A DNA stretch of 59,613 bases, counting the filler, from Nemertoderma westbladi (Eukaryota > Animalia > Xenacoelomorpha): assembly GCA_032718475.1 (NCBI GenBank). It is 3 parts of 3 records of this genome, joined end to end, with 100 filler letters (N's around TTAATTAATTAA, not from the genome) between each part and the next. Parts side by side here need not be neighbours in the genome. Positions count along the whole stretch, not along the records: positions 20,826 to 49,929 come from JAUCBJ010004627.1; 2 more parts are not named here. The stretch is one strand, 5' to 3'. Below are positions 11,145 to 57,375 of the stretch, one piece after another. Below the pieces are notes generated by a model, which worked only from the letters and a program-made list of their open reading frames with translations, searched no databases and was not told where the DNA came from. Both the position numbers and the translations under genes were made by a program. Each line of letters begins with the position of its first letter. Within the stretch, counting starts at the first letter, position 1.

Positions 11145-11402
11145 GCTCGGCTCAGGACGCGAGAATATGTCTAATTGAGCACAGTAGGGCGTGTTGGCTG
11201 GCGTCAGGATGCGAGAAAAGATCTAATGGAGCACAGGAGGGTATGTTGGACCGGCTCTGGATGCTAGAATAGATCTAATGGAGCGCAGTAGGGCGAGATG
11301 GCTGGGCTCAGGACGCGAGAATATATCTAATGGAGCGCAGGAGGGTGTGTTGGCTGGGCTCAGAACGCGAGAATATATCTAATGGAGCGCAGTAGGGCAT
11401 GT
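11145..11402. repeat. ~52-bp tandem repeat, about 5 copies (also at ~15688-15948)
   Basis: Unit ggctcaggacgcgagaatatatctaatggagcgcagtagggcgtgttggctg. Confidence 0.85.
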
Positions 11403-11891: not shown

Positions 11892-12198
11892 CATACAATT
11901 AGGTGCACTGTTATTTACATATTAAATATCAGACTGTATTGAAAAATTATCTTCGCAAAGCATATTCATAGAACTTTGGCACTGGCATTGAAGTGGTGCA
12001 CTTTTTGAATTATTCTTATTCTAAACATTTAATATCTTTGGTCATATCATACAATTAGGTGCACTGTTATTTACATATTAAATATCAGACTGTATTGAAA
12101 AATTATCTTCGCAAAGCATATTCATAGAACTTTGGCACTGGCATTGAAGTGGTGCACTTTTTGAATTATTCTTATTCTAAACATTTAATATCTTTGGT
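11892..12198. repeat. ~156-bp tandem duplication between the two segmental copies
   Basis: catacaattaggtgcactg...atctttggt occurs twice in a row. Confidence 0.85.
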
Positions 12199-12368
12199 TT
12201 TAGGAAATGATGCTCTTTCTGATGCAACAACAATATTTCCTATAAATATGCATTATATGGTAGAACTTTACTTATTTGTATTTAGCTGCCTATTTCCACT
12301 TTTTTTTAGCCGTCAGCACTATGAGAGATATTGGGCAATAATTGTTCGGGTCAGCTGGGTCATCTTTT

Positions 12369-28841: not shown

Positions 28842-30969
28842 TTTTTTTTTTTTGGTGCTTGGGTGAGATGATAGTATAATAACATAGTTGATACAATGGA
28901 TTTCAAATTGCACTATTACACCCTATCACCAAATCTGATTTATACAATGAGGTACAGTGATACGGATGTAAGGGGGAAATTCAAAACAGTTGGTTGTTTA
29001 TGTTGTAGGCCTACTGCAGTACTGGTCAGCTATTGTAGGCCTGTACGACAGCGCTGTACTACCAGGCTACGGCTCAGTGTCAGCGTTGTCCAACCGAATG
29101 GAGGCATCAGACACTGGACAATGAACCGGCCGTTTAGAGGCTGACCTACAACCTCGAAGGCAGAGCAGGGAGGAACGAAGCAACGCGAAGTTTAACTTGC
29201 GCCGGATCCACGTGACGCATTCCGAGTACCTGACCTCGCGTTTGTCCGCGAGCTTCTGTCCCAGGCGCTTAACAAACTGGCGCGTGGTCGGCGCCATCCC
29301 GCCAAAGGCCGAGAATATGAGGGGGACGAAAGTAGAATGTTCCACCTCCCGTATCCTCTCCTCGTACTTAAGAATCTTACGATTCTCGTGGTGGAGGTGC
29401 GCTGCGTCTAGGGACATAGCCGCGTTCGTCGCCGCCAGCGGGTTAAACACGGACACGTCGATGAACGACCGCTGGAATCGGTTTCCCCAGAAGCCGCTCA
29501 CAGACACATCCAGCCTCGCCTGCTGGTCCGTCGAGGTGGTACGATGGGTGAAAGTTTCACCGGATAACGGCTGGAGCATCGGCTCAACAGCAACGCTGTA
29601 GGCGACCTCAGTGAGCGAGTTGGCGACGAAATCACGTATCTCATTGTGCCTGATGGAGGGGAAACCTCCAGTTGGGCACGACAGGACGTGGGTTGCAGAA
29701 AATCGCGCCCCACAGGCACAACGAGATGGTAGATTCTTCGGACACCAACCGTAGCGGAGACACACCGCATCCCGGAACCCTTCTTTACTCAGGTGAGTAA
29801 CTTGTAGGGTTAGTGGCTTGGAGTTTAACCAAGCTGACGCACCTTTTTCTGTTGTGAGTTCACACAGTTTGCGTTGGTCTGTGGGTAACTGGGCGTAAAC
29901 TTGTTCCCTTTTAGTACGAGACGATGTTATGGACTCCGCCTTCACCTCGATCACGATCCGTCTCTGTTCAGTCCGCACCGCTGCCATCGACTCCGCATCT
30001 GCGAACGGTTCACAGACTCGGCGCGAGTGGTCATACTGCGTCTCCAAGTCGGAAGGAACCGGGATACCCAATCCGCCATCCCGAGTTGGGAGGGAGACTA
30101 GTTGGCGTTCAACCGCCGATAGCGACGGCCTGTCGAGCAGTTTGGCGATGAACCGCTGCAACGTCTCCTCCAGCTTCCCGAAGTGCTCCGTTGCGTTGGG
30201 GATGACGCGGGTTAGGAACCTCCACCTGCAGGAGAGCCCGAACGCCAAACCGGCGTACGCGCAGTGGGGGTCCACCGCGGCAATCTCGGCGAGTCGATCG
30301 ACTTCCTCCGCGAACTCATCGACTTTCTCCTCGACGTAGCTGGAACAAAATTCCTCGGTACCGATAACGCCGCCGAGTAGCTTGTTGCCCGTCGTATCAA
30401 TTGTGACAATGGTGTTCGCAAACAACGCTGCCGCCTCCACTAACTTATCCGGCTTTACAGTCAGGACACACTTCGACGGGTAGTACCCGTACAATGGTCC
30501 CCTTGAACACGCGATATCAAAGAACTTCCTGAGTTCTCCCAGTCGGCCCCCCGCGTTCCCATCGTCCGCATACCACTTCTGTTCCACGTCGCACCCGCGG
30601 TCCAGTTCGTCAAGGAGCGGCGTTATACCGCAGCCAAACATCGGCATCGCCACCGGGTCTCCTTGGGTGGAACCCTCCTCCGAGTAGAGGGTTTCCCCGC
30701 CGACGAATAGCCGCGCTGGTTCGCTGTAACAATTAGTTACTATCGTGTGCAGCGCCGGACAGACTAAACCGATGTTATGCAACGCTGCGCTGCGGTTTAA
30801 CACATTAAATGCGTTGGTAGCGTCGATCTGTAATATGCCGTCGCAGTCCTCAGAGGCAAAGGAATCGTTTAAACTGTGTATCGCGTGTTCGATTCCCGCT
30901 TTCTGTCCAAGACACATCTGGACAGATCCGCCGACGGCCTGTAAATCTGGACTGATACACAGCACCGTT
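28842..30969 (-). mobile_element. 5'-truncated CRE-clade non-LTR retrotransposon (restriction-like endonuclease type)
   Basis: Poly(A) tail (T run at 28842-28853), 3' UTR, TSD AGTACTACTAATAG at 28828-28841 and 30976-30989. Confidence 0.85.
29067..30965 (-). CDS. RT, CCHC zinc finger and RLE endonuclease (N-terminally truncated)
   Basis: IDATNAFN, GSTQGDP, YADD, GGLG, CACG..HVLSC, RHNEIRD, RLD..FIDV..K..KY. Confidence 0.9.
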   Translation of the reverse strand: MLCISPDLQAVGGSVQMCLGQKAGIEHAIHSLNDSFASEDCDGILQIDATNAFNVLNRSAALHNIGLVCPALHTIVTNCYSEPARLFVGGETLYSEEGSTQGDPVAMPMFGCGITPLLDELDRGCDVEQKWYADDGNAGGRLGELRKFFDIACSRGPLYGYYPSKCVLTVKPDKLVEAAALFANTIVTIDTTGNKLLGGVIGTEEFCSSYVEEKVDEFAEEVDRLAEIAAVDPHCAYAGLAFGLSCRWRFLTRVIPNATEHFGKLEETLQRFIAKLLDRPSLSAVERQLVSLPTRDGGLGIPVPSDLETQYDHSRRVCEPFADAESMAAVRTEQRRIVIEVKAESITSSRTKREQVYAQLPTDQRKLCELTTEKGASAWLNSKPLTLQVTHLSKEGFRDAVCLRYGWCPKNLPSRCACGARFSATHVLSCPTGGFPSIRHNEIRDFVANSLTEVAYSVAVEPMLQPLSGETFTHRTTSTDQQARLDVSVSGFWGNRFQRSFIDVSVFNPLAATNAAMSLDAAHLHHENRKILKYEERIREVEHSTFVPLIFSAFGGMAPTTRQFVKRLGQKLADKREVRYSECVTWIRRKLNFALLRSSLLCLRGCRSASKRPVHCPVSDASIRLDNADTEP

Positions 30970-31004
30970 AGTAGTAGTACTACTAATAGTACTACTACTA
31001 CTAG

Positions 31005-31167
31005 CCAGGGCGCATATCTCTGCCTTGCATCCTTAAGTGGTAGCTAAATGAGTACTGGAGTTTCCTCTGGGGAGTAAAGTTCTGGGGGGACCGCACTGGA
31101 AATAAGTCGTCAAACTTTGTGCGTAATCCCTGGCCTAGTGGCCGAAGAAAATTTACTTTACTTTTTT
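31005..31167 (+). mobile_element. Short SINE/LINE 3' fragment inside the satellite
   Basis: Unique sequence with a SINE-like ggtagctaaatgagtac segment and a (TTTAC)n-like tail, flanked by satellite. Confidence 0.45.
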
Positions 31168-36215: not shown

Positions 36216-38595
36216 AATTAGTAATAAAAAATTAAAACAAAATCGCTATTTTAACATTATTATTATTATTATATTTATTTATATATATCATCTTTTCACT
36301 CACTTTTAACCTGAAATACATAAATATAAATTAATACTAGGGCCTAATATATAGAAAATAATATATATAGTACAAAAATGTCTTACTTTTTGTCCTTTTT
36401 CCAGATCGCAAAAGCACAATAAAACAATAAAAAATAAAAATTTATTACGGAAGAGATGGTATCCCTACAACACCATCCCCTCCCTCCTCTACCGAATGCA
36501 CCCTCATCTGAATGAAACCCATCACCTATAATGAATACATACATTTCGTTTCTACATACTTCCGATCTTTCTCCCCAGTATAACAAAAACTAACCAATAT
36601 ATATAAAACGTTCACCTTTTATCAATGTATGTGTTTTACTAACATTGTTATAATTTAAATATTTGGTGGTGGGGATATCTAGTAATCTAGTAACCGGATG
36701 AACTAGAAAAATATAAGAGCCTAGTGCTCAAACTATCCTATCCTAGAGCATTTGAATTGCCGCCAAGCTCTGTCCAGTACTCTCTGGTCGTGTTATCCAT
36801 TGGAAAATTCGTAAACCAATAGTGTGTTTTTCACTTTCTAAATTCTGAATCCCTTTGTCAGAGTGTAGATTTGGCAAGATGGTGACTGCTCATTGGTTTT
36901 TTTGACCAGGAACGAGCACTGATGACTGACTGTGTCAGTCTGTGTGTTGCCTATGCACAGCATACCTGTTGTGTTTGCCAATAACATCGGGCAGAACACC
37001 GAGAATCATAGTCAATTACTTGGCTGGGGATACTATACTGATTACTGCTGTACTTGTATATTATACTTACTGACCTAATGATTAACCTATGTAAATATTG
37101 TTTATGCCATACGGAGAATATGAGGACCCATAGTTATTACCGAACTGATTGTTATTCGCATCTATGTATGCTCTGGTGGGTATTCTGGTTCAACCCAAGT
37201 GGTGTGGCATGCTTAAAATTATTTTGTAGCCCCAACCAAGTGCCGGATTTACCTTAAGACATATAAGGCACGTGCCTTAGGGCCAGCCGAAAATACGGGC
37301 CATTTATTATCAGCGAGTCATTCCTGTGAAAAATATATTTCTATCTGAAAAATCCACATTTTTTGTCACTAAAATTTGTTGAAAAAAGAGCAAGAAAATG
37401 CAACTTTCGACTACTTTCTAGTTTCTATCACTAAATTTGTGATAGAAAAGTACAAAATTCGTGCTCAGTCGACCGACAGGTGCTGTGTTATTATTTACTG
37501 GGTTCGAGACCAGACGGTAGTGGCACAATATTTAGATATTTCAATTTCATCATTATTATTAACGTAATTTAGATTCACAAAAAGTTATGAAAAACTTTTA
37601 CGGGAAACTCTTATTATAAATATAGACCAGACCCTAATACATAAAATAAAGGATAAAATAGTTGTAGATAAAATAGTAGTCGATAAAAAAAAAACGTGTC
37701 AGAAATAACTCCTTGTCACAAATTTAATTTAATCGAAATTCAGATGTCCTGCCCTCGTGTATTGAATTTTGCACTCGATGGCATTTTAGCTGCCAATTCC
37801 TGCAAAACCTAAAACTCTCGGACAGCATAATTGAATTTTAGTATATTAAAATTAGTGACAAAAAGGGCTCCTTTCCGTGACTTTTCTCTTATTACATTAC
37901 ATTATCATTGGCGATATCTCCTTTGCAGAAGTGAAGGCTGCTGCAAAGAGCATTAAGACCAATCGTGCCAGTGGAGTAGATGGTGTTCCCCCTGAGGTCT
38001 TTAAAATACCTGAGTGTTTAAAGCTCATCTATCCCATCATAGTAGACGTGTACCGAACAATAAGAGTCCCACAAGAAATGAAAACAAATAAGTTGGTGCC
38101 AGTTCCCAAGAAGGGCAACCTAACAACACTCTATGGTTCTTTTCGGGGAATCTTATTGATCTCGATTGCTGCAAAGCTATACAATAGAATTCTATTAAAT
38201 CGCATCAGGGATCCCATTGAGAGACTGCTCCGTGGAAATCAGAATGGGTTCAGTAAAGGCCGTGGGACCATGGAGCCCATTTTGGCACTTAGAAGGATAA
38301 TTGAAGAATTATCAAAAAAGAAAGACAGGCATCTGGCTGTTATCTTTGTTGACTTCTTCAAGGCCTTTGATTCAGTCTCTCGCTCACGTATGTTTGTTAT
38401 TATACATTTATTATATAGGAAGGGATCTAGGGGTCTCAACCTCGAATGATAAGTTTATTTTACCGAAAATAACTTATATTTTATTTTGCGCAATTGTAGG
38501 ACTAATCCCATCACATGCGTACTTTTTAACCGGGTAGTGTACAAATTTAGGAATCGCGTAATTTTTCTTGAAATTAATATCTCGTATCTCTCCAA

Positions 38596-38638
38596 ACCAC
38601 GTACGCGTTTCGACCTTACTGGGTCTCATCAGCGTGGT
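38596..38638 (-). ncRNA. Minimal type I hammerhead ribozyme
   Basis: ACCACG-CUGAUGA-GACC cagtaa GGTC-GAAA-CGCG-UA-CGUGGU: complete catalytic core, stems I and II, short palindromic stem III. Confidence 0.9.
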
Positions 38639-38701
38639 GTCGGATTCGAAACTGGGACCTCGAGGAGGAAGCCGAGACTACAACCACTAGGCCACAGGTT
38701 C
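38635..38701 (-). promoter_or_regulatory. tRNA-derived Pol III promoter (A and B boxes)
   Basis: A box TGGCCTAGTGG (38684-38694), B-box-like GTTTCGAATCC (38642-38652), followed by ..gacACCA. Confidence 0.7.
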
Positions 38702-39425
38702 TTGAGATATGGAGTATTAATTTCAAAGCCAGCTGCCATTTTATTAGCCCCTGATTTTTTATTATTGATAGTAACAATGTGTTGGCAAGCTGTATTTATC
38801 GAGGTGTTTGTTATTATACATTTATTATAGGAAGGGATCTAGGGGTCTTAACCTCGAATGATAAGTTTATTTTACCGAAAATAACTTATATTTTATTTTG
38901 CGCATTGTAGGACTAATCCCATCACATGCGTACTTTTTAACCGGGTAGTGTACAAATTTAGGAATCGCGTAATTAAATTTGTACACTACCCGGTTAAAAA
39001 GTACGCATGTGATGGGATTAGTCCTACAATTGCGCAAAATAAAATATAAGTCCTCCAGGGAGACACACTTGCACCATTCTTGTTCATAATTGTGGTTGAC
39101 TATGTTTTACGCATGTCCTTAGATCAAGTAACATATTTGCAATACTGCAATATCAAAGATTGACAGTTTATATTAGTATGTATATAATTATCATTAGGCT
39201 ACTAGGCCAAGAGGTAGTACAGTCACAAATCGTTATTAATACAGTAGTACATAGTTAGAATACCTAAAGTATTACATATTCAAATTTCCCTCCACCTCAT
39301 TAATCCATAAATCTACTACAATTCCTTTTTTTTTCAAATTAATGTGATGACCAGATTATACATTAATTATTATAGTTTACTATAATAGTCTAGTGTATTA
39401 TTATAGTTTGTGTTCCATTATGATT

Positions 39426-40280
39426 TCAATTTTCATAAGCACAGTCCTTCAGTCGATCACTATTCCTGATGTCTGCGTTTGACATATTTTTATACTTGTC
39501 CATCAATATGTTCGCCTTTGGACCTAATGCCTCGGGGTGTATAGGTCGAATATGTCGGCGGTTGCGATACAACAACTTTCCAGATGGAACTAGTAATCTA
39601 TATCGACGATTTCCACAGTGTCTAACAACCATTGCAGGCGTATCCCATCTGTTTGAAGTAGGATCTAAAATTAAAACGCATTGTTGTGGTGTGATTTCTA
39701 TGGCAGGAACTACATTATTATTTTTATCAAAATCACATTTCTGTTTAATCTTGTTATTCTTCCTTCGTTTCTCAACAGTTATCCATTGGTCAGAAGAAAT
39801 TGGAGTAAAAGATTCTGCTATTGCAGGTAAACAGGTGTTTATTCGACGACCAAACATTAAAGTAGCTGGAGCTACACCGGTTGAAGAATGTTGAGATGCA
39901 GCTAATTCCATAAACCCTTGAGCGAATTCATCTGAATGAAAGTCGCCATCAACTCGTTCTAATAATAACTTGACCTTTTTCACTGCGGCTTCTGCAGATC
40001 CATTGCTTTGGGGAAATTTTGGCGAACTAGGGCACCAATGGATTGACCAAGTTTTGAACCAAATCATCATTTCTTCTGATGAAAAACAAGTTTGACCATC
40101 AGATCTGATTACTTGAGGTACTCCATACTCCATGAATAATGCGCGAAGTAGTTTTTTTATATATGATGATGATGTTGACTCATCGCAAAGGCGAATCCAC
40201 AAGAATCCTGTTAACTCATCAACAATTATGAGAAATTCCTGGCCCCCATACTTTGCAAAGTCCGTGCACAATACCTCCAT
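39426..40280 (-). CDS. Duplicated integrase core plus native C-terminus
   Basis: 643-bp tandem duplication, 39677-40319 and 40320-40962. Confidence 0.85.
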   Translation of the reverse strand: MEVLCTDFAKYGGQEFLIIVDELTGFLWIRLCDESTSSSYIKKLLRALFMEYGVPQVIRSDGQTCFSSEEMMIWFKTWSIHWCPSSPKFPQSNGSAEAAVKKVKLLLERVDGDFHSDEFAQGFMELAASQHSSTGVAPATLMFGRRINTCLPAIAESFTPISSDQWITVEKRRKNNKIKQKCDFDKNNNVVPAIEITPQQCVLILDPTSNRWDTPAMVVRHCGNRRYRLLVPSGKLLYRNRRHIRPIHPEALGPKANILMDKYKNMSNADIRNSDRLKDCAYEN

Positions 40281-40314
40281 TGGCCTTGTTGCACAAGGAT
40301 AGGGAGTGAGTGGT

Positions 40315-42654
40315 TCAGCCGCATTGTTGTGGTGTGATTTCTATGGCAGGAACTACATTATTATTTTTATCAAAATCACATTTCTGTTTAATCTTGTTAT
40401 TCTTCCTTCGTTTCTCAACAGTTATCCATTGGTCAGAAGAAATTGGAGTAAAAGATTCTGCTATTGCAGGTAAACAGGTGTTTATTCGACGACCAAACAT
40501 TAAAGTAGCTGGAGCTACACCGGTTGAAGAATGTTGAGATGCAGCTAATTCCATAAACCCTTGAGCGAATTCATCTGAATGAAAGTCGCCATCAACTCGT
40601 TCTAATAATAACTTGACCTTTTTCACTGCGGCTTCTGCAGATCCATTGCTTTGGGGAAATTTTGGCGAACTAGGGCACCAATGGATTGACCAAGTTTTGA
40701 ACCAAATCATCATTTCTTCTGATGAAAAACAAGTTTGACCATCAGATCTGATTACTTGAGGTACTCCATACTCCATGAATAATGCGCGAAGTAGTTTTTT
40801 TATATATGATGATGATGTTGACTCATCGCAAAGGCGAATCCACAAGAATCCTGTTAACTCATCAACAATTATGAGAAATTCCTGGCCCCCATACTTTGCA
40901 AAGTCCGTGCACAATACCTCCATTGGCCTTGTTGCACAAGGATAGGGAGTGAGTGGTTCAGCCGGAAGTGCTGGTCTAGATCTCTGACATGCATGACACT
41001 CATTCACCACTCGTTCAACGTCATCTCCAAGTCCAGGCCAATAGAAAAGTTCTCGTGCTCTAGCTTTCATCTTCTCTATTCCTGTGTGTGACTTGTGTAA
41101 TTTACTCAATAATTCTGGTATTAATAATTGAGGAGGTATAAGCCGCTGGTTTCTGAGGATAACTCCATCATTTCCAACTGTTAACTCATGTTTTATCTTT
41201 TTAAATTTTCTTGAATAATTGTTTTTTGAGAAATCGCCGGTATTTAATGCTACTATCAGTGATTGGTAATCCTGGTCTTCCATAGCCTTTGATCGTACCT
41301 GATCTAATCCTCTGTTGGGTATAAACTCTTTAACTGCTTCAGTCACGGCTGCTGCACAAATGGTTGCAAACTGATCAATATCAGTATTATCATCTTCATC
41401 TGGAGGTGAACAAGGGTATCGAGATAATGCGTCTGCCACATTATTTTCTTCTCCTTTTTTCCACTCAACTGTAAAATTAAATCCAGTGAGTTTTGTTCGC
41501 CAATTTAGTATTCTTTTATTTTCTATCTCTGCAAGACTTTGTATATTGAAGATTGTCGTCAGTGCTCGGTGATCGGTTTGGATTGTGAAATGTGGACATC
41601 CCTCAACGTATATTTTAGTTTTGTTAATGGCCCAGTAGATTGCCAATGTTTCAAGTTCTACTGCTGCATAATTTTCTTCTGCCGATCGTAACATGCGGCT
41701 GCCACATTGAAGTAGTGTCCGTGGTTCATTCAACTCCCCCTCCTGGAAGAGAGCAAATCCAAGTCCACAAGTACTTGCATCTGTTTCTAAGATGAGATGT
41801 TTACCTCGTTCAAACATTCCGAGAATAGGTGGTGACAATAAAATATCCTTTGTTTTTTCCATTGCCTCAGTGTGTTCTTGTAACCAATGAAATGTGTTAC
41901 GAGTTTGTAATATATTTCGGAATGGGGTCATTGTTTGTGCTAAATTTGGAATAAATGATGCCATCTGGTTGGCTAAACCAACAAATGAGCGTAAGTCTGT
42001 TCTTGTCTTTAGAATAGGAAATGACCTAATAGCTTCCACTTTACGTGAATCAGCTGTAATATGTCCAGCTGATATATGATAGCCAACAAAGTCAATTTGT
42101 TCTGTCGCCAATACACTCTTTGTAGAACTAATTGTGAACCCATGTTTCATACAACGTTCTAGAACTTCTGCCACATTTAGAACAAGTTCAGGTAATGTCT
42201 CCTTTCCAATAGCAATATCATCCATGACTTTCGATAAGTCATCAATGCCACTGAGTGCCACATCCCCACGGAATGAAAAGGCATCTCCAGTGCTGGAAAA
42301 ACCCATGGGACTACGTAAAAAGCGAAATTTACCTTTATTTGTTAGAAAAACGGTCATCCAGGAACTTTCATTATCGAGCTCCATTTGCCAATATCCTTTT
42401 ACAAGAACTATTTTAGCAAAGAATCGGTGGTTCCGTTGAAACACATTCACAGCCTCCGCAGGTGTGGGTACTCTATGGATAGTGCGATCTATCTGATCAT
42501 TGAGTTTCTTCAGGTCAACACAAATACGGACATCTCCTGATGGTTTGCCAACAACCACCAGTGGGTGACACCATGGTGTTGGTGTATCCCCAACAGGTGT
42601 GATGATTCCGCGATTCAACATATAATTTAAGGCTTCATCAACCTTTTCCTTCAA
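40315..42654 (-). CDS. Pol (RT, RNase H, integrase), probably disabled
   Basis: VRICVDL, VMDD, ETDAS, TDH, ADALSR, HHCC and DDE core; first RT Asp appears replaced by Val (AKIVLVKGYWQ); frameshifted from gag near 42690. Confidence 0.9.
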   Translation of the reverse strand: MKEKVDEALNYMLNRGIITPVGDTPTPWCHPLVVVGKPSGDVRICVDLKKLNDQIDRTIHRVPTPAEAVNVFQRNHRFFAKIVLVKGYWQMELDNESSWMTVFLTNKGKFRFLRSPMGFSSTGDAFSFRGDVALSGIDDLSKVMDDIAIGKETLPELVLNVAEVLERCMKHGFTISSTKSVLATEQIDFVGYHISAGHITADSRKVEAIRSFPILKTRTDLRSFVGLANQMASFIPNLAQTMTPFRNILQTRNTFHWLQEHTEAMEKTKDILLSPPILGMFERGKHLILETDASTCGLGFALFQEGELNEPRTLLQCGSRMLRSAEENYAAVELETLAIYWAINKTKIYVEGCPHFTIQTDHRALTTIFNIQSLAEIENKRILNWRTKLTGFNFTVEWKKGEENNVADALSRYPCSPPDEDDNTDIDQFATICAAAVTEAVKEFIPNRGLDQVRSKAMEDQDYQSLIVALNTGDFSKNNYSRKFKKIKHELTVGNDGVILRNQRLIPPQLLIPELLSKLHKSHTGIEKMKARARELFYWPGLGDDVERVVNECHACQRSRPALPAEPLTPYPCATRPMEVLCTDFAKYGGQEFLIIVDELTGFLWIRLCDESTSSSYIKKLLRALFMEYGVPQVIRSDGQTCFSSEEMMIWFKTWSIHWCPSSPKFPQSNGSAEAAVKKVKLLLERVDGDFHSDEFAQGFMELAASQHSSTGVAPATLMFGRRINTCLPAIAESFTPISSDQWITVEKRRKNNKIKQKCDFDKNNNVVPAIEITPQQCG

Positions 42655-44597
42655 ATGAATTGGGATTGGTCGTGCTGCTGTAATGGCACTTGTGGAGTAG
42701 CATCTTCCTTGAGAAAAAAATGCATTGGTTCTCCAACTACTCCACCCTTCATCGTCTTTAATGTGGTGGAGTCATCAAAACACTCAGCATAGATTTCTTT
42801 CAATTTGAAATCCACCTTCTTCAAAGCTCTTGCTTTTGGTAGACCTTCTAATGATGCAGCCCATGCCTTCCTTTCTTCTATTGCCCAAACCGGATTATCT
42901 GAGACCTCAGCCTCATTTAGATTAATTTCTGTCATATTATTTTGTTCAATTGTAGAGAATTCTGGGCATTGAGATACCATACAATGTTTTTGATCAACAT
43001 GTGAAATTGATTGTATTTTCATTGGTAATGGGAATTCATTATGGATAATATTGAGTTTTTTACAAATGTTTAAAGAAAGAAATAGTCCCTCGACATCATG
43101 GCAAACACAAACAGATGCAACTACTACAGGTCCGCCCTCTATGTATTTGATATTCACATCAAAAATACCTGCTTGAATGACCTCCCTTTGTCCAATTGAA
43201 ACTATTTTGAATAAAGGTGCTCGTAAGTTTGATTCTGAGTAATATTTTTCAAAAATATCATAACCCATGATACAAGCACCAGCTCCAGTGTCGGGTACAG
43301 CTAAAATTTCAGATGTCTGACCAAACTCTGACTCCATTTGTACTGGGAGTGTTGGTTGTTTTACCGGTGATGTAACTATTGTATTGAAAAATACAGTTGC
43401 TGATGAGGCCTGTACCGACTCTCTACAACATGCAGCAAAGTGACCCGTTTTTCCACAAACCAAACATTGTTTGTTTTTTGCTGGACAGATTTTACCAGTT
43501 GCATGTCCATTTGGTGATCCACAATTTGTACAGGATATCGAATATTTTTTCTCATCCTTCTTGTCATCTTTCTTAACCCATTTATTCTTTTGGTATGTGG
43601 TTTGTCTGGTTGCTGCAGCTGGAATTTCTTCTGTCGCTGCTGCGACATATGATGATGCACCAGTGCTTGTCAGCTCATGGGCTCCTTTCTTTGTTGTTTC
43701 CAAAGTATCAAGGAATGTCCAGGCTTCCTCATAGGATTTCGGTTTTTCCACCAAAAGTTTCTGGACAACTTCTTCTTCACGAATTGCAACAACAAGTATT
43801 GTTGTTAAGAGTATATCATATGTCACATTTCTGGCATCGGCTAAATCCGCCAAATTCGCTATCTTATTGCGTAAAGATGTGAATGACATTCCAGCTGATT
43901 GTTTCACTGTTAAAAGGTTTCTCCAATCAACAAACTGGTTTCTTTTATTCCTTAAATAGCGGTTTATATGCTCAATAACGTCATCCACATCCTTTGCTGT
44001 GTTCATTTTCACTCCAATAGATTGGCGGATGGTGTCAAGGAAGGAACCTGAACATGAATCCCAGAATGCCGCCAATCTTGTTGGTCGATCTACTTGATCT
44101 AGGCCTAACATTTTGGCGTAATTGTTCCAAAATTCGAGCCATTTTGTGAATGCTGCAAAGTCGATATCAGATTCCAGTAAAGGAGGTCGTCTTGGGGAAA
44201 ATTTTGGGCGTTCAGCCCTAATTGCAGGTTGTGCTACCTGTAGTTGAGGTATATTATCCCTCGCCACTGCAGCATTTTTCATTTCTTCATATTCAACTGT
44301 AAGGATTTTAAACCTGCGTTCTAGGTCGACAACAGCGATAAATAGATCATCAAAATCCTTATGAATATCAGTCTTCATGCATTCAGCATGACTACGTATC
44401 TTGTTTTCAATGTCTTCGAATGTTGACCACCTTGTCGTTAATCTAAGAACATCATTCTCCAAAGCTGCTGGGCGAGATCGCTCCCCCGGTGGGATGATCT
44501 CATAGTCTTCGAAAGATTTTTCGGCTACTCGTCGGGCCCGCGTAAAATTCCCTTGAGCTGTTGAACGGCTTCTCTTTAATTGAGCTAGCTCATCCAT
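42651..44597 (-). CDS. Gag (double zinc knuckle) and protease
   Basis: CTNCG..H..CPAKNKQCLVCGKTGHFAACC; protease motif PDTGA. Confidence 0.9.
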   Translation of the reverse strand: MDELAQLKRSRSTAQGNFTRARRVAEKSFEDYEIIPPGERSRPAALENDVLRLTTRWSTFEDIENKIRSHAECMKTDIHKDFDDLFIAVVDLERRFKILTVEYEEMKNAAVARDNIPQLQVAQPAIRAERPKFSPRRPPLLESDIDFAAFTKWLEFWNNYAKMLGLDQVDRPTRLAAFWDSCSGSFLDTIRQSIGVKMNTAKDVDDVIEHINRYLRNKRNQFVDWRNLLTVKQSAGMSFTSLRNKIANLADLADARNVTYDILLTTILVVAIREEEVVQKLLVEKPKSYEEAWTFLDTLETTKKGAHELTSTGASSYVAAATEEIPAAATRQTTYQKNKWVKKDDKKDEKKYSISCTNCGSPNGHATGKICPAKNKQCLVCGKTGHFAACCRESVQASSATVFFNTIVTSPVKQPTLPVQMESEFGQTSEILAVPDTGAGACIMGYDIFEKYYSESNLRAPLFKIVSIGQREVIQAGIFDVNIKYIEGGPVVVASVCVCHDVEGLFLSLNICKKLNIIHNEFPLPMKIQSISHVDQKHCMVSQCPEFSTIEQNNMTEINLNEAEVSDNPVWAIEERKAWAASLEGLPKARALKKVDFKLKEIYAECFDDSTTLKTMKGGVVGEPMHFFLKEDATPQVPLQQHDQSQFI

Positions 44598-47500
44598 TTT
44601 TAAAGCTTATTTACACTGCGCCAAGTAACATATTTGCAATACTGCAATATCAAAGATTGACAGTTTATATTAGTATGTATATAATTATCATTAGGCTACT
44701 AGGCCAAGTGGTAGTACAGTCACAAATCGTTATTAATACAGCAGTACATAGTTAGAATACCTAAAGTATTACATATTCAAATTTCCCTCCACCTCATTAA
44801 TCCATAAATCTACTACAGATCATCATAATGATGATGGGGTGATGATAACTCCACCTGCTGGCTCCAGAAGTCGAGGAAATCCTGCCAAGTACCTAACTGA
44901 TCTAGACTTTGCTGATGACTTAGGAGTACTCTCAGAATCACTAGAGGGAGCCCAACGGCTCCTCAGCTCATTAGAGCATGCTTCTTCTAGTGTTGGTCTT
45001 TTTATTAACTCCAGAAAGTCCAAAATTTTGACAGTTAACTTTGAAAGTCCTCAGCAAGTCTCTGATCGGATGAGCATAAGCTCAAAAGATCGTATGCTTG
45101 AGCATGTGGACGACTTCTGTTACCTGGGATCATGGATCCGAAAGTCAGGTGAGGACCTTCGAATACGTAAGGGAAAAGCATGGGCAGCCTTGAATAGGCT
45201 TTCCAGGATTTGGAAGTCACCGAGAATTAATCGGAAACTTAAGGTCCGATTATTTAGAGCAGCAGTAGTTCCAGTACTCCTCTATGGGAGTCCATGCTGG
45301 GCTCTAACTGCTGAGGACACCAAATCTCTGGATGGCACATTCACAAGAATGCTACGCCGGGTTCATTGTGTCAAGTACAATGCACACATCTCCAACCAGA
45401 CACTATATAACATTGGAGGTGTCTCATTGGTTCCCCCAAGTTTGACACTAGAACACAATCGCCTCCGCTTTGCAGGACATTGCTTTTGCCGTGAGGACCA
45501 ACCAGTGCATAATCTTGTACTTTGGCAGCCTCATGGAGTGAATAAGCATGGTGGACAGCCCATGACTTTCTTGAGACGCATCTTAAAGGACACTGGCCTT
45601 GAAGATGCGGATGATCTAGCAAATGTCATGGGTGATAGGGAGTTGTGGCGGTGCAATTTTGTCGATAAGCCGGCACAGCATTCTTAAAAATGCAGCTGCA
45701 ATGCAGCATGCCGATCCTAGTAGTAGTAGTATTGAATTTTGCACTCGATGGCATTTTAGCTGCCAATTCCTGCAAAACCTAAAACTCTCGGACAGCATAA
45801 TTGAATTTCAGTATATTAAAATTAGTGACAAAAAGGGCTCCTTTCCGGGACTTTTCTCTTATTACATTACTTGATCAGATAGTCCAAATCTAGATCAGAA
45901 ATATTATATCTTTGCACAAGCCCACACTTTTACTGTGTAAGGATGTTAAATTTATCAGCAAGTCCTGTAAAGATAAGTAAAAGTACCCTGCGAAGCAAAT
46001 AAATAACACATTCCCTCGGTCTGATCAAAATTAAGGCCTACTAACAGATTACCCCGAAAATTAAAGGAGCTATTACCCCGAAAAGAAGTGGAATTTTTGA
46101 AAATTTAATAATTGTTTTTGTAGTTTGTTAGAGGGGTTTTCATATGGCGATATCGGTTTTCAACAGTGAATTATTTTTTGACTTCAAAACTTCTCTTTTC
46201 AACAACATAATATATTGCTGATATTCATGAATCATAAAACCAGATATATAATAGGAAACTTGGACGCAAATAACAGTTGATTATTCTCAAAAATAAAACT
46301 GTAACCTGTTCTATTGTGTTTAGTTTATTGTTTTGGTTAAAATAACGTGCCACTGTAACCTGCTCATTTCCCTAAATTGAGAATTTAACATTGAGGCGGG
46401 ATATTAATTCGCCAAGGCGGGTTTTGCGTCCAGTAACTATCACAAAATATTTGATTCCAAAAATATAGCCCGGACATATTAAAACCCCCATAAATGTTTA
46501 AAAAACAATAATTTTGTGGTAAAATTGTCATAGAAGATAACCTACATATCTAGGTCCATTGTACCAAAGTCTTGGACCATGAACTTCAACCCAGGTGGTA
46601 GGCCTATTACAGATCCTTAAACATGAGCTAATTTACATAAATAAATGCCTTAAAATTTATACAATTTTTGACAAAACCGACCTGAAAACTAATTTTACAA
46701 AGTACTTACTTCACAGTGTTCTAATTATGTTAGCTTATCCAACGAAAATACTTTATATTTCTTTCGCAACATTTTCACCATTTCTATTGTTTTAGCAGCT
46801 TTTTCTTTTAAAAGGGTTTGTGGAAAAAATATTAATTTTCGGGCTATTTGCTAAAAATTTCTAAAATGTGCCTTAGGGCCCCCAGAGGCTTAATCCGGCA
46901 CTGGCCCCAACATATGTGAGCCTTGAGCAATTGAGCATCTTTGTTATTCATGAACAAAATTGTCTCAAGTCAGCGGTTTATGTATAACTAACTGTGTATC
47001 TCAGTTAGAGTTAACATTCCATGTCACTAAAGGACATGCAGACTATGATCTTTGTTAGTTTATGTTGTAATTGCCGTCAGACATAGTCCTGTTTGATATC
47101 TGGAGCACGACATCCCGAACGGAACTGTTAATACATTCTCTGTAAGTCCATATTGTTGTCAGGAATTACATTACGAATTAATAGATAATTATTAAGAGCG
47201 CTCTTAATAATTATCTAGAGCCCCCTAGATAATTCGTGATTTGTTTGGTGGGACTGATTTGGAGGGAACTTCAAATGCATAAATCAGGTAACGGTTTAGG
47301 GTGTTACCGGCACACTAATTACTTATAAATCTGTTACAGCAACTATTTTTACTTTCTTTTTTTTCTTTAGTATAAGTGCAATTAACAGTATATTAGAAAC
47401 TGTCTAACCATAACATTACCCAATAGTGCAATTAACTCTATGTACAAATCTGCCGCCCACTGTTCTTCTAATTAAGCCAAGTATTGCCCGCACTAGCTAT

Positions 47501-50193: not shown

Positions 50194-50408
50194 ACTGTTT
50201 TAGACTGTTTAGACTGATAGAACAAGAAATTGAGCTAGTGCAAAAATATAAGTGAGTTTTATGAGGTGAAGCAAATAAGCTAAAAATCGCATTCTGCTCT
50301 ACCTCAATAGGCCTACAGCAATATCCAATATCTAATCTTACGTCGTCTAAGTAGTCTTTGAGTAGTCTAAGTAGTCTTCAACACGAACACGGCTAAACAG
50401 TCAAGAAA

Positions 50409-53400
50409 ATGCCACATAATTTCTCAACTAATTACAATTATGAATCCGCTGATGTGAGCGGATGGAGAGTGAAGAATGTCCAAGCGTATTTACGCAACGG
50501 TATAAACGCTCCATCTAAGGACAATGTCCCGGATGGAATGCTCTGCATCCTCGGCGTCGATGGATTGTTTAACGCCGGAATGAGAGAACTCGCTAACTAT
50601 CTGACGCTGGGCGCATTGGACACCGATCTGGGTGACTTATTGGATGATACTATGATTATGGTAAAGCCAAACTCGGTTCATGTTCATATGACTTTATCTT
50701 CATACGATCATCTGGCCCCAGTCGTTCACGCATGGCGCAATGTAGTTGTGCATTGTTTCGATCCCTCCACCAACAATATTCCCGAAGACGATATACAGGA
50801 GGAAGTTGAATTGTATAAGATTCACTCGTTTATTAAGATGGTTGCAGATTGTAAAGTAATAGCGATTCCATACAGTCAGACGGGCCATTCAAAACCATTC
50901 AAACCGTTCCACGTCGAGAAATGGCCGATAGTTCAGGCCTTCGGGCTGGACGGAATCGGCCCGGGCGGTTTCTTTACAATGTCTCACACCGTCGTGGACG
51001 CCAGCGGTCTAACTCCGGTTATATTCAGCACTCTGGACTGTCGGAATATTGAGCAACTGATGCTCGACGGTCTATCTTGCTTCTCCAGACACTGGGCCGA
51101 CTTTATTTCCAAGTGTGATCGTTCCCCTGCAGATAATCCCCTGGACGTGGCTGATGTGGGCGAGCCATTGTTCTCTTACTATCAGTTTGGCAGATGTTCT
51201 GGTAGCGAAGGTCGCGGTGTAACTCATAGTTACCAACCCTTCATCCTTTTAGGGTCAATGACCTCGGCATTAAAGGCCCCAATTACTGAGGCAGTAAATG
51301 GAAGACAGGCTTCACACAGTAGTGGCAATGACGTCACAGGCCACATTGTTGGTGACGTCACTAACCCTATTCACATGGTCATACAGGGGGTCCAGCCCAA
51401 AGGTCCTTTAGTCTGCAGACGTTCCTACTTCCTAGTCCCAGAGAATCAATCCAAAGATTCCCGTATGTTGTCACTTCTATATAAGGCGATGGTTACCGCG
51501 TTCTACGGGGCCGTTAAGGTTTATCTTTCCTCTCTGAGCGCCTCTAAGGCCGTCGATTCAGCTAAGGAAAGTTTCGAGTATCTGTTAGAGAAGTGGCAGA
51601 TAGAATCTCCCGAGGGTTTATTAGAATCGTTATCGTTTCGTATCGAATCCCGCGGGAATCTAAGCGAAATTTTGCCGCTCCTCAACGGGAAACCGTCACC
51701 TTTTGTTAAAATCGCGATTATTTCCCTGTCAGACATTTCGAGTCTGGTAGATACCGAGCGTAATCTCGGAAGTCTGAGTTTCTCTGAGACGTTTGTTGAT
51801 GCGGTTACCGTGTTCGCCGATGGATCGTCCGACTCAGAAGTTGTTTATCTCACTCGAATCCTTCCGATATTCGCGAGTTTCTTCCCGCCGCCTCTCCCAT
51901 CGCTTCCAGAGAAGCCCCTTCTCTCTGACACCGATTGCGTCTTCCTCGCCTCCTCTAAACGCCTCCAGACTGCGGTATCCTCCATCCGCTGCCACGCCTC
52001 CGGCATCCTGTTCCAACCCCGTCGACTGGATTCCTTCATCCTCCCACTCTCCGCTCTCCACTCGGTCCGCTACTACGACGGCCCATCTCCGACTCGTCTT
52101 CTGCTGATCGCGATGCGACTGAAACCCGATTACCTCGCTATCCTCCCAACCGCGCTGGTCCACTCTGACGGCCTCCTTTACATGGGGGTCCCTTTCGCGT
52201 CCAGGAAAGTTAATTCTGGTTTTAAGTCCGAGATTCTCTCAAAGTGGCGCGCTGCTAAACTTGCTGATGTTGTAGAGACGTTGTCTGACGTCGAGAAGGA
52301 CGTCTACGAGGGGTTGGTCCGTAGTAGCCGAACTCCCAGTCGCTTCCACACCGCGGTCCAATACGATCTCGCCTTCCCGGAATTGCGATCATTCTACTCG
52401 CAGTTGTCCATCTCCTGCGCCGCGGACCACGGAGCAAAGGTTCCGCTCAGCATTAAACACGGGCTCGCGGAATCTGCCAGGAGTTCAGCTTTCCCGATCA
52501 CCGTTATAGTGTCCGGCGGCCGTGTAGCTGAACTTCTCGTCGCTGATACATCCTCGACTATCCGGTGGGAATCCATCTCCCAACCGGTGGAACTCCCTGG
52601 GTTTAACCCGGACTTCTTAACGGAGTCACTCCGGGATTCGATCGACTCTCTCCGCTCCGTCGTCGATCCATCTCGGAAACCGCGGATTCTCCTCGACCTT
52701 CCCTACCTCTTCGAGGTTCACCAACTCGTTGCGCTCCTCCGGAACCTCCCCGATGTGTTCCTCGCGGCGGTTGCGGTCTGCCTGGACCCCGACGGGCTCT
52801 ACGTGGGCCCCAACCGCCGTATAGTCCCGGGACTGTTGGCCCACTGCGCCCGGGGTTGGACCTCCGCCGTGATACTCGGGAAGAGCGAACGAACCTACCG
52901 CGAGACGCAGCAGAGAATCCGCGAGTTTAACTCAAACGTCGCGTTCATTCTAACCGACGAGGGGCGGATATCCCGCGGACCCGATATCGAGATTCTACTC
53001 GACAACGAGGTGTTCCCTTCCCGCGATATGGAACGCGCTCGGTTCCTATCTATTCCCGGCTGGTGGAACAACGTTCCTCCGTTCTACTCGGTCCACGACA
53101 TTCACGCCGTCGTTGTCCGGTCTGATTCCGTTTTGGATCGGCCCCGTTTCCTCGGGAAAATAAAATCCCTCCGAGTTCGTAATGACGAGTTCACCGCGAT
53201 TATAAAAATAAATTCCGCTGTTTATTTCTCTGATAATAAACGCGAGATTTATAACATCTCTTGGGACTCGCCGTCTGGTAAACTACTTATAGAGTCTTCT
53301 GGATTTGGTGATGATTATCCACCAGATAGTTTCACTTCAATTGTCACTTTTATTGGTTTCGATCTGTCCACCGAAGAGTTGAAGATGTTTTTAGAGCAAA

Positions 53401-53696
53401 GTTTACCGCCGAAACTCGAGGCCAAACCGCTCCGACGTAGAAGCGATTTAACCCCCGGCGAATTAGCGCAGCTCAAGAAGAAACATCACCTGGATTCGTT
53501 GCCCGAGGGTTGGTACTACAACGGGAGCAGTTACGTTAGTGGCTTCGGCGATAAGTCGCCATCTCATCCCTTGATGGAGGAACACATAATGGAGTACCTC
53601 GAGGTGGATAATAAACGTATAGAAGCTCGCAATGAGAAGATTAAAGATGATGTGGAAGCTAAACTCGTGTCAGTTACTAGTCAGCAAATATTGTGA
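50409..53696 (+). CDS. DNAAF9: Dynein axonemal assembly factor 9 (C20orf194/Shulin) homolog, intronless
   Basis: N-terminal PDGMLCILGVDG.FN.G.RELANYL, VEKWPIVQAFGLDGIG.GGFFTM; C-terminal LPEGWYYNG..YV...G.KS..HPLME; 1095 aa in one ORF. Confidence 0.85.
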   Translation: MPHNFSTNYNYESADVSGWRVKNVQAYLRNGINAPSKDNVPDGMLCILGVDGLFNAGMRELANYLTLGALDTDLGDLLDDTMIMVKPNSVHVHMTLSSYDHLAPVVHAWRNVVVHCFDPSTNNIPEDDIQEEVELYKIHSFIKMVADCKVIAIPYSQTGHSKPFKPFHVEKWPIVQAFGLDGIGPGGFFTMSHTVVDASGLTPVIFSTLDCRNIEQLMLDGLSCFSRHWADFISKCDRSPADNPLDVADVGEPLFSYYQFGRCSGSEGRGVTHSYQPFILLGSMTSALKAPITEAVNGRQASHSSGNDVTGHIVGDVTNPIHMVIQGVQPKGPLVCRRSYFLVPENQSKDSRMLSLLYKAMVTAFYGAVKVYLSSLSASKAVDSAKESFEYLLEKWQIESPEGLLESLSFRIESRGNLSEILPLLNGKPSPFVKIAIISLSDISSLVDTERNLGSLSFSETFVDAVTVFADGSSDSEVVYLTRILPIFASFFPPPLPSLPEKPLLSDTDCVFLASSKRLQTAVSSIRCHASGILFQPRRLDSFILPLSALHSVRYYDGPSPTRLLLIAMRLKPDYLAILPTALVHSDGLLYMGVPFASRKVNSGFKSEILSKWRAAKLADVVETLSDVEKDVYEGLVRSSRTPSRFHTAVQYDLAFPELRSFYSQLSISCAADHGAKVPLSIKHGLAESARSSAFPITVIVSGGRVAELLVADTSSTIRWESISQPVELPGFNPDFLTESLRDSIDSLRSVVDPSRKPRILLDLPYLFEVHQLVALLRNLPDVFLAAVAVCLDPDGLYVGPNRRIVPGLLAHCARGWTSAVILGKSERTYRETQQRIREFNSNVAFILTDEGRISRGPDIEILLDNEVFPSRDMERARFLSIPGWWNNVPPFYSVHDIHAVVVRSDSVLDRPRFLGKIKSLRVRNDEFTAIIKINSAVYFSDNKREIYNISWDSPSGKLLIESSGFGDDYPPDSFTSIVTFIGFDLSTEELKMFLEQSLPPKLEAKPLRRRSDLTPGELAQLKKKHHLDSLPEGWYYNGSSYVSGFGDKSPSHPLMEEHIMEYLEVDNKRIEARNEKIKDDVEAKLVSVTSQQIL

Positions 53697-56511: not shown

Positions 56512-57375
56512 ATGAACAACACTGATAGACGACGGCAGGCCAGAGTGCAGGGTGGGTGGTCTTCTATGTCTACGCCCCGCGCTGGTGGACATAGCAACCG
56601 TATGACGTCATCAACATCAGTGGCTACTAAGCCATCGCTTAATCCGCATCCAACCGCAACCGCTCGTCAGAACTCGGGAATAAACCGGGTTGAATTCCAG
56701 CAACCGAGTGCGGAGCAGGTTAAACGAATCCCGTCTCCCGTTATGATAACCAAACCCGGAGAGCATGTTATCAGTACAGACACTAACGGACCATCTACTA
56801 TCTCATACAACCCATCTTTTATAGATAGCGACGAAGCTCGATGGATGATGGAGACCTTACTCTCCGAATTACCTTGGCAGCAGATGGAACTGACTCTATC
56901 CGATGGTAGACTAGTTAAACAACCCCGTATGGTTACCTGGTACGGGGACCGGCCTTACTCTTACTCCCGAGTAACCCAACAAGCCAACCCGCATTGGCAC
57001 CCGCTGTTGGCCTCACTCAGGGATCTACTGTCCGACCTTCTCCACGTCCCGTTTAACTCGGTCCTGTGCAACCTGTACCGCAACGAGAAGGACTCAGTAG
57101 ACTGGCACAGTGACAACGAACCCTTGCTAGGTGGCGCCCCCACCATAGCGAGTCTATCGTTCGGAGACTCTAGAAACTTCGAACTCCGTAGGAAACCGTC
57201 TGATGGCTCTGATGATTACACTTACAGCGAGACACTCAAGGTGTGTCTCAGTAGCGGCAGTCTGCTAGTCATGTCGGGGTTGACTCAGTTGCATTGGCAA
57301 CACAGAATTCCTAAGGAATACCACGATAGACGCCCACGTGTTAATCTAACGTACAGAGTTATATTGCCATCCTAA
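56512..57375 (+). CDS. ALKBH3: AlkB homolog 3, Fe(II)/2OG dioxygenase, intronless
   Basis: RRQARVQGGW N-terminus, QPR..WYG, NSVLCNLYRNEKDSVDWHSD, WQHRIPKEYH, RVNLTYR. Confidence 0.92.
   Translation: MNNTDRRRQARVQGGWSSMSTPRAGGHSNRMTSSTSVATKPSLNPHPTATARQNSGINRVEFQQPSAEQVKRIPSPVMITKPGEHVISTDTNGPSTISYNPSFIDSDEARWMMETLLSELPWQQMELTLSDGRLVKQPRMVTWYGDRPYSYSRVTQQANPHWHPLLASLRDLLSDLLHVPFNSVLCNLYRNEKDSVDWHSDNEPLLGGAPTIASLSFGDSRNFELRRKPSDGSDDYTYSETLKVCLSSGSLLVMSGLTQLHWQHRIPKEYHDRRPRVNLTYRVILPS

What the first reader, a model, noticed from the sequence alone, without database searches (positions are those of the whole stretch)
38391..39051. tRNA head fused directly to a hammerhead ribozyme in a Penelope-style repeat (SINE-retrozyme hybrid)
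Seen on the minus strand: an A box and B box ending in ..CCGAC-ACCA, where ACCA(CG) is itself the 5' strand of hammerhead stem I. The 414-bp unit is partly repeated in tandem and ends in an inverted segment. There is no TSD and part of the host RT is deleted. Known: minimal type I hammerheads, partial tandems and inversions are hallmarks of Penelope-like elements and retrozymes, and Schistosoma Sm-alpha is a precedent for Pol III promoter plus hammerhead. Inference: a Pol III-transcribed, self-cleaving, non-coding retroelement mobilised by a PLE, possibly producing ~414-nt monomer or circular RNA; the palindromic stem III suggests dimeric cleavage.
Basis: partly seen in the sequence, partly recalled or inferred. 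Interest (0 to 1): 0.8.

Follow-up and report, generated by a model that had tools for sequence, protein, structure and literature searches.

The report
tRNA-headed hammerhead retrozyme, dead-end copy
This 661-base insertion in an animal genome is one copy of an abundant 411-base non-coding repeat that joins tRNA-type promoter boxes directly to a hammerhead self-cutting motif; it likely makes its own RNA, is predicted to cut in pairs and close into circles, and was likely pasted in by a Penelope-type enzyme, a design already known in outline from blood flukes.

Summary
On the minus strand, A box, anticodon-loop positions and B box stand in tRNA register and run, after 3 nt, into a complete type I hammerhead; a 23-bp stem encloses both. 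The insert is 1.42 units of a 411-412-bp repeat plus a 78-bp inverted arm, has no TSD, and replaces about 40 codons of an RTE-like LINE. Public runs show a many-copy family with 3' ends clustered at one site and a perfect B box in most copies. Best reading (0.6): a non-LTR retrozyme with its own Pol III promoter, cleaving as a dimer and likely copied from a circle by a Penelope-type enzyme. This copy has one hammerhead and a B-box mutation, so it cannot yield a monomer. Transcription, cleavage, circles and the partner enzyme are untested; no autonomous partner was found (no genome held). Schistosome Sm-alpha already combines a Pol III promoter, hammerhead and tandem units, and retrozymes are already proposed as Penelope passengers. 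This scan noted what appears to be the same family at least four times in this genome and similar designs in other genomes. Verdict: new member of a known kind; interest 0.4.

The parts
38391..39051 (-). whole insertion: 1.42 units (584 bp) plus a 78-bp inverted arm
   Evidence: LINE copies in public runs diverge from the window behind 38394 and before 39049-39050 (table 7)
38564..38974 (-). one full 411-bp unit, 38.7% GC, no ATG-ORF over 51 codons in the 584-bp arm
38391..38563 (-). partial tandem copy (RNA-sense 3' part), equal to 38805-38974 except 1 substitution and 2 small indels
38974..39051 (+). inverted arm, head to head, identical to 38472-38549; 13-nt loop 38961-38973
38704..38726 (-). 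5' arm of the 23-bp stem that encloses tRNA part and hammerhead
   Evidence: I6; 20 of 23 positions pair
38684..38694 (-). A box (tRNA positions 8-19)
38665..38671 (-). 7 nt in the register of a tRNA anticodon loop (C32, U33); position 37 is a purine in most other copies
   Evidence: row 38666
38642..38652 (-). B box (tRNA positions 52-62); this copy has a mismatch at 38651 where nearly all other copies match the consensus
   Evidence: row 38651
38596..38638 (-). type I hammerhead motif, predicted cut between 38602 and 38601; stem III hexamer self-complementary
38568..38590 (-). 3' arm of the enclosing stem
38760..38769 (-). site where other copies of the family end (RNA-sense 3' end), about 40 nt beyond the point equivalent to this copy's end (38805)
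   Evidence: tables 2 and 7
38878..38881 (-). the only run of four U on the sense strand of the unit (possible leaky Pol III terminator); repeated at 38466-38469
38391..38394 (.). 4-nt microhomology between host LINE and element at the left junction
39049..39051 (.). 2-3-nt microhomology at the right junction
37908..38394 (+). host RTE-like LINE, RT up to the motif ending at the insertion; continues 39049-39126 and 44818-45728
39127..44817 (-). Gypsy-type LTR retrotransposon nested in the same LINE, 5-bp target duplication; a separate event

Best explanation
[quoted passage not shown] Steps. (1) Shown in DNA: boxes in tRNA register, intact hammerhead core, 23-bp enclosing stem, many copies. 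(2) Inferred: Pol III starts near 38701 in an upstream unit of a multi-unit locus and partly reads through the single U4. (3) Predicted: two hammerheads pair through their palindromic stem III and cut, releasing a unit with the promoter near its 3' end; the enclosing stem and stem I then hold the two ends together for ligation into a circle. (4) Inferred: the enzyme starts inside the RNA, in an AC-rich stretch (38805-equivalent here, 38760-38769 in other copies), runs 1.42 turns across an intact cleavage site and stops 5 nt short of the enclosing stem; the other DNA end primes a second, 78-nt copy on the same kind of RNA, giving the head-to-head inversion. (5) Shown: about 120-130 bp of target are gone, with short microhomologies at both junctions; whether this happened at insertion or later is open. 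This copy is a dead end as a source of monomers.
For: tRNA register A box-12 nt-loop-12 nt-B box; 1 such pair in the window, 0 in 150 simulations. At 38651 the consensus B-box base has summed depth 420392 of 420456 in X1 and all depth in X4, X5, X7. Double hammerhead is the minimum-energy fold of two copies, -31.7 against -23.4 kcal/mol for two monomers; monomer stem III pair probability 0.0. tRNA+hammerhead domain folds better than 200 of 200 shuffles, z -3.09. 83 contigs of X5 lie on one unit and all 30 bins are covered; 5 of the 14 loose-end rows shown, each with another flank, fall at 38760-38769 (43 rows not shown), with a five-fold depth step there in X5. One X4 contig is 441 nt and overlaps itself by 30 nt, a closed 411-nt loop (record 22). 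Both tandem copies and the arm share a base (38478, 38890) that differs from the family majority, so they come from one template lineage. A sediment-run contig keeps the hammerhead (1 difference in 74 nt) and the 3' module (4 in 41) while 168 nt between do not align (record 15). Partial tandem, 5' inversion, 30-40-bp tail and internal start in an AC-rich loop are PLE traits (PMC8557442; PMC11167929; PMC3846280).
Against: No autonomous Penelope element sharing the ends was found; none lies in the window's long ORFs (19 of 28 ORFs scanned) and no genome is held. The inverted arm ends at the 38884-equivalent, not at the family's 3' end, unlike a canonical PLE inversion. The second end point (38805-38812) rests on this copy and one loose end. 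ARAGORN and Rfam do not call a tRNA, and the acceptor stem does not pair. The family is young, so conserved boxes are weak evidence of selection. The closed loop in X4 would also arise from tandem DNA, and the run's type is a guess. The whole unit as a circle is only weakly structured (z -1.5; 5 of 100 shuffles as good) and the scarcity of U runs is not significant (P 0.58). In PMC11167929 hammerhead cleavage was dispensable for PLE insertion in vitro, and in the 2026 preprint 8 of 9 predicted Xenopus retrozymes did not cleave.
Confidence: 0.6

Rival explanations
1. The unit is the terminal repeat (pLTR) of a protein-coding Penelope element that has a tRNA-like promoter, and this insert is a truncated end-piece of it.
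For: Same insertion anatomy as PLE ends. Earlier scan notes reached this reading in other genomes (unchecked). Two longer X5 contigs (1831 and 1055 nt) carry both modules with unseen sequence between.
Against: The unit closes on itself at 411 nt with no room for an ORF (record 22). The 1831-nt variant has changes at three core positions (38630, 38610, 38603) and breaks a stem II pair, so it looks like a decayed passenger, not an active end. The hammerhead is the canonical retrozyme form, not the PLE minimal form (PMC4209133).
Confidence: 0.15
2. The same retrozyme RNA, but this copy was written by a LINE reverse transcriptase (twin priming or template switch) or captured at a double-strand break, not by a Penelope enzyme.
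For: It sits in an RTE-like LINE, replaces about 40 codons and has microhomologies of 4 and 2-3 nt at the junctions. The arm does not end at the family 3' end. PMC7229834 leaves LINEs or PLEs open.
Against: No shared tail with four LINE 3' regions of the window (best hits 11 nt, E 0.15); the host LINE ends in a TAG repeat that the unit lacks; no poly(A), no TSD; family ends cluster at an internal site of a circularly permuted unit.
Confidence: 0.15
3. The tRNA boxes are a relic of an old fusion; the repeat is transcribed by read-through from host promoters or spreads as satellite-like DNA, and the hammerhead may be inactive.
For: No tRNA call; no expression shown; PMC7761336 says retrozymes may rely on read-through; most predicted Xenopus retrozymes failed to cleave.
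Against: The majority B box is perfect; in two diverged sediment-run contigs 9 of 13 listed differences fall between the boxes, 3 in the A box stay within its consensus and the 1 in the B box matches the consensus. Inversion, truncation and many distinct flanks point to reverse transcription, not array expansion.
Confidence: 0.1

Closest known systems
Schistosoma Sm-alpha / Sj-alpha SINE-like hammerhead retroposons (PMC6765202 passages; PMC2770079 passages; sequence printed in the supplement of PMC8490949; Ferbeyre 1998 and Laha 2000 not read)
   Same: Pol III-type promoter followed by a type I hammerhead, tandem units of 300-420 bp, promoter left at the 3' end of the cleaved unit so that single copies cannot propagate; tRNA-derived; palindromic stem III.
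   Different: B box to core is 9 nt here against 38 nt in the printed Sm-alpha copy (my count), so stem I replaces the tRNA acceptor strand; a 23-bp stem encloses both parts; the host proteins match no listed trematode closely (24% over 40% of DAAF9); Penelope-like insertion anatomy was not mentioned for Sm-alpha in the passages seen. No sequence comparison was run.
Metazoan non-LTR retrozymes (PMC7229834 passages; bioRxiv 10.64898/2026.07.22.740005 parts 1-3 of 5)
   Same: Type I hammerhead in a non-coding 150-450-bp repeat, under 50% GC, no LTR/PBS/PPT; weak helix III with palindromic loop as in axolotl HHR_Amex1, which needs dimers; proposed PLE passengers.
   Different: Carries its own candidate promoter, whereas PMC7761336 invokes read-through; this copy has one hammerhead and so is a monomer derivative; circular RNA not shown here.
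Penelope-like elements, e.g. Poseidon_Ac (PMC11167929 parts 1-2 of 4; PMC8557442 and PMC3846280 passages)
   Same: Partial tandem, adjacent head-to-head inverted copy, optional absence of TSD with microhomology junction, internal start in AC-rich sequence, end points about 40 nt apart.
   Different: No ORF; canonical rather than minimal hammerhead; inverted arm lacks the family 3' end; no sequence link to a PLE shown.
tRNA-derived SINEs and Helenus/Ajax small-RNA-derived LTR elements (PMC10886601 abstract start and passages)
   Same: A tRNA-derived Pol III promoter carried inside a non-autonomous retroelement.
   Different: tRNA part is internal and circularly permuted; no LINE tail, TSD, LTR, PBS or PPT seen; has a hammerhead.

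Membership tests
Metazoan non-LTR retrozyme | type I hammerhead with intact core | tested here: met
Metazoan non-LTR retrozyme | non-coding repeat of 150-450 bp, under 50% GC, many copies | tested here: met
   411 bp, 38.7% GC; longest ATG-ORF 51 codons
Metazoan non-LTR retrozyme | tandem organisation | tested here: met
   1.42 units here; closed 411-nt loop in X4. The 'goes back 411' joint is no extra evidence: it follows from my choice of unit ends
Active retrozyme locus (Li et al. 2026 criterion) | two consecutive units with complete hammerheads | tested here: not met
   one hammerhead in this copy; arrays elsewhere are known only from unchecked scan notes
Metazoan non-LTR retrozyme | self-cleavage in vitro | not testable with these tools
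   only folding energies
Metazoan non-LTR retrozyme | expressed as linear and circular RNA | tested here: inconclusive
   closed-loop contig in a run only guessed to be RNA
Sm-alpha-type element | tRNA-type A and B boxes upstream of the hammerhead | tested here: met
Sm-alpha-type element | Pol III transcription | not testable with these tools
   needs extract or ChIP data
Sm-alpha family proper | sequence homology to Sm-alpha | not tested
   sequence seen only in a paper supplement, no alignment run
Classical tRNA SINE | element begins at the tRNA head | tested here: not met
   head lies inside the unit, about 270 bp from the 5' end of this copy
Classical tRNA SINE | LINE-derived or A-rich tail and TSD | tested here: not met
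   only the LINEs of this window were compared
tRNA gene | cloverleaf recognised by ARAGORN or Rfam | tested here: not met
PLE-mobilised element | partial tandem plus head-to-head inverted copy | tested here: met
PLE-mobilised element | two 3' end points 30-40 bp apart (tail) | tested here: inconclusive
   one clear cluster at 38760-38769; second point from this copy and one loose end
PLE-mobilised element | ends shared with an autonomous RT-GIY-YIG element | not testable with these tools
   no genome held; none in 19 window ORFs scanned
PLE minimal hammerhead (min-HHR) | no non-conserved nucleotides in helix III, helix I 4-5 bp | tested here: not met
   helix I 6 bp, helix II 4 bp, palindromic helix III present; definitions from PMC4209133 part 1

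The most novel reading that the evidence does not exclude
A self-sufficient RNA circle parasite of Penelope elements: a SINE-like element that arose independently of Sm-alpha by grafting a hammerhead onto the acceptor stem of a tRNA, carries its own Pol III promoter round the circle, uses a 23-bp clamp to close itself, and is written into DNA by a Penelope enzyme rather than a LINE. It would name both the promoter and the mobilising partner that are still open for animal retrozymes.
Probability: 0.4. Interest if true: 0.65.

Novelty: new member of a known kind. Interest (0 to 1): 0.4.

Why it matters
For animal retrozymes two things are open in the papers seen: which polymerase makes the RNA and which enzyme copies it back. 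A young, abundant family with a perfect B box, a defined cut site and clustered ends makes both testable with small constructs. It would also show that Pol III promoter plus hammerhead is a recurring solution outside blood flukes. The design itself is not new, and this copy is a damaged example; multi-unit loci of the family are better material.

Tried and rejected
Whole-genome census: no genome held. Rfam at gathering level: 0 matches; the miRNA and snoRNA hits only reflect the perfect hairpin and were rejected. tRNA call: none. Expression: no RNA holder listed. B box + hammerhead pattern in metagenome contigs: 36 loci, 0 of 36 relatives of the element by my stem filter, 1 of 36 (L019) with A box and both stems, in a tRNA/tmRNA cluster; in viral contigs 3 and 17 loci, none a relative. 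My first pattern did not match this copy because of its B-box mismatch; the corrected one did (post hoc, 0 of 100 shuffles). Strand depletion of U runs: not significant. Circular fold of the unit: z -1.5. The 'goes back 411' joint was dropped as evidence for arrays. Summed depths were not used as copy numbers. ACCA as a tRNA CCA end: rejected by register. Host taxon: two searches gave only 'animal, distant from all listed species'. The 658-aa ORF 29070-31043 has RT-like motifs by eye but no Pfam match and no visible GIY-YIG; not pursued. Sequence look-up in earlier findings: nothing.

Full report
Setting. The window is animal DNA: two host-type ORFs match DAAF9 and ALKBH3 of many phyla at about 24-30% and 39-54% identity with no close relative. 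No genome is held. The finding lies in a nest of retroelements: an RTE-like LINE (37908-45728) interrupted by this insert and by a Gypsy-type element at 39127-44817 with a 5-bp target duplication.

Observation. On the minus strand an A box (38694-38684) is followed by 12 nt, a 7-nt stretch starting CU, 12 nt and a B box (38652-38642), the spacing of tRNA positions 8-62 (tRNA numbering and box consensus recalled). Three bases later begins a type I hammerhead: stem I 6 bp, intact core, stem II 4 bp with a 6-nt loop, a self-complementary stem III hexamer and the triplet GUA. Rfam scores it 26.1 bits, E 7.7e-05, under the gathering score. The window holds one A+B pair at this spacing and 0 of 150 simulated windows held any. 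ARAGORN and Rfam call no tRNA; the acceptor stem is replaced by hammerhead stem I, so ACCA sits at positions 66-69 and is not a CCA end.

Insertion anatomy. The insert is 584 bp (1.42 units of 411-412 bp) plus a 78-bp head-to-head arm. Other LINE copies agree with the window up to 38394 and from 39049-39050, which gives overlaps of 4 and 2-3 nt with the element. There is no TSD. Between two RT motifs 54 residues lie in the window's other LINE and about 14 here, so about 40 codons are missing. Both arms stop 5 and 19 nt short of the base of the 23-bp stem, as if the stem stalled the enzyme (inference). The short arm ends 2 nt before the only sense-strand U4 of the unit; this is a single, post hoc hint of priming near a Pol III end.

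Family. Four runs were laid on 38200-39300 and three on one unit, six different runs of the 10 listed. Summed depth over the central part of the element in X1 is about 5-7 x 10^5 against 2-5 x 10^2 over the adjacent LTR; this is no copy number, but with 83 X5 contigs on one unit and many different flanks it shows a many-copy repeat. Where this copy departs from the majority in the tRNA-hammerhead domain (38651, 38666, 38584), the majority base gives a consensus B box, a purine at loop position 37 and one more stem pair. Five of the 14 loose-end rows shown fall at 38760-38769 with different flanks (43 rows not shown), and X5 depth rises five-fold there: the usual RNA-sense 3' end. This copy ends about 40 nt earlier, in an AC-rich stretch inside a 7-bp stem. 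All 30 bins are covered in X5, so many copies run past that end into the tRNA part: the unit is circularly permuted. One X4 contig is 441 nt long and overlaps itself by 30 nt, a closed 411-nt loop if contigs were built from 31-letter words (inference); tandem DNA would give the same. Both tandem copies and the arm share a base that the majority lacks (38478, 38890), pointing to one template lineage. In the sediment run X7 (small share, depth 3-10, three contigs), one contig keeps the hammerhead region (1 difference in 74 nt) and the 3' module (4 in 41 nt) while 168 nt between do not align; two others show 13 listed differences, 9 between the boxes, 3 tolerated in the A box and 1 towards the B-box consensus (places near contig ends are not listed). 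Against a coding partner: an 1831-nt X5 variant carries three core changes.

Mechanism. Two hammerhead copies fold best as a double hammerhead (-31.7 against -23.4 kcal/mol) and stem III does not form in the monomer, as for axolotl HHR_Amex1, which cleaves well only as a dimer (PMC7229834 passages). I infer Pol III transcription of multi-unit loci, paired cleavage, ligation helped by the enclosing stem, and copying from an internal start by a Penelope-type enzyme that primes from both DNA ends; the PLE protein PAc cleaves and extends both strands and starts at two sites in an AC-rich loop (PMC11167929 parts 1-2 of 4). The long arm crosses an intact cleavage site, so the template was a circle or an uncut multimer; the data do not tell which. 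With one hammerhead, a B-box mismatch and 103 bp of the unit (38804-38702) lying only upstream of the promoter, this copy cannot regenerate a monomer.

Results against. No partner element was found. The short arm lacks the family 3' end, and a later deletion or break-repair capture would explain the missing TSD and target loss equally well. U-run depletion and whole-circle folding are not significant. PAc insertion did not need cleavage, and 8 of 9 Xenopus dimers did not cleave. No shared tail with four LINE 3' regions of the window was found, which weakens but does not exclude a LINE partner.

Comparison. Sm-alpha is described as a Pol III promoter followed by a hammerhead, in tandems, with the promoter left at the 3' end of cleaved units (PMC6765202 passages) and as tRNA-derived (PMC2770079 passages). 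In the supplement of PMC8490949 (part 7 of 400) I count 38 nt from B box to core in Sm-alpha and see similar boxes 29 nt before a hammerhead core in a W25.2 copy (my reading; that paper's main text has no 'tRNA'). Retrozymes as PLE passengers are proposed in PMC7229834 and in bioRxiv 10.64898/2026.07.22.740005 (parts 1-3 of 5; supplements not seen). PLE anatomy is from PMC8557442 and PMC3846280 (passages); hammerhead classes from PMC4209133 (part 1 of 4); read-through from PMC7761336 (passages); PMC10886601 and 10.1101/596502 were seen as passages. Seven searches (listings only, partly cut) showed no paper on a tRNA-headed retrozyme with PLE-type insertions outside schistosomes; the library lacks most subscription papers and Repbase. 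Ferbeyre 1998, Laha 2000 and Lunse 2017 were not read.

Verdict. Real, not chance, and well explained as a non-LTR retrozyme of the Sm-alpha design. Earlier scan notes describe what appears to be the same 411-412-bp family at four or more other places in this genome and similar elements in other genomes (unchecked, not independent support). New member of a known kind, interest 0.4; the bolder reading, an independently evolved Pol III circle that parasitises Penelope enzymes, has probability 0.4.

Noticed in passing
L040:301-411, L051:250-355, L054:301-406, L052:301-348, L019:2970-3100: Phage-type contigs with a type I hammerhead motif directly behind a tRNA: 4 of 17 viral hits have stem II of 4-5 bp and stem I of 5-6 bp, 3 of these 4 with an ARAGORN tRNA just upstream. 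In L019 the tRNA-Gln 3' end itself forms stem I. Six further hits behind tRNA-Glu share another core-like motif. One paper search found nothing.
   Followed up: partly
X5 record 6 on window 38770-38894: A 600-nt contig shows 9 A-to-G changes on the + strand among 19 eligible A, none after G or C (P 0.008): an ADAR-like pattern on the antisense strand, as expected if fold-back copies are transcribed and edited. One contig; run type is a guess.
   Followed up: partly
X5 records 1 and 4: Longer variants (1831 and 1055 nt) join the 3' module to the hammerhead through unseen sequence; the longer one has a broken hammerhead core.
   Followed up: partly
window 39127-44817: Gypsy-type element with 99% identical LTRs, a 5-bp target duplication and an exact internal 645-bp tandem duplication (39677-40964) in the integrase region.
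   Followed up: no
window 37759-37907 and 45729-45877: A 149-bp direct repeat (97%) flanks the truncated host LINE, which ends in a TAG repeat: possibly a very long target duplication.
   Followed up: no
window 29070-31043 (-): 658-aa stop-free frame with RT-like and C-terminal cysteine/histidine and nuclease-like motifs by eye, no Pfam match; flanked by TAG-rich repeats.
   Followed up: no
window 50397-53693 and 56506-57375: DAAF9 and ALKBH3 homologues appear as single uninterrupted frames, suggesting intron-poor genes or retrocopies.
   Followed up: no
window 7377-16380: About 3-kb and 1-kb direct duplications at 99% identity beside N gaps; may be an assembly artefact.
   Followed up: no
L002:2076-2550: GOLLD RNA and a second hammerhead-like match (1634-1687) in a phage tRNA cluster.
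   Followed up: no
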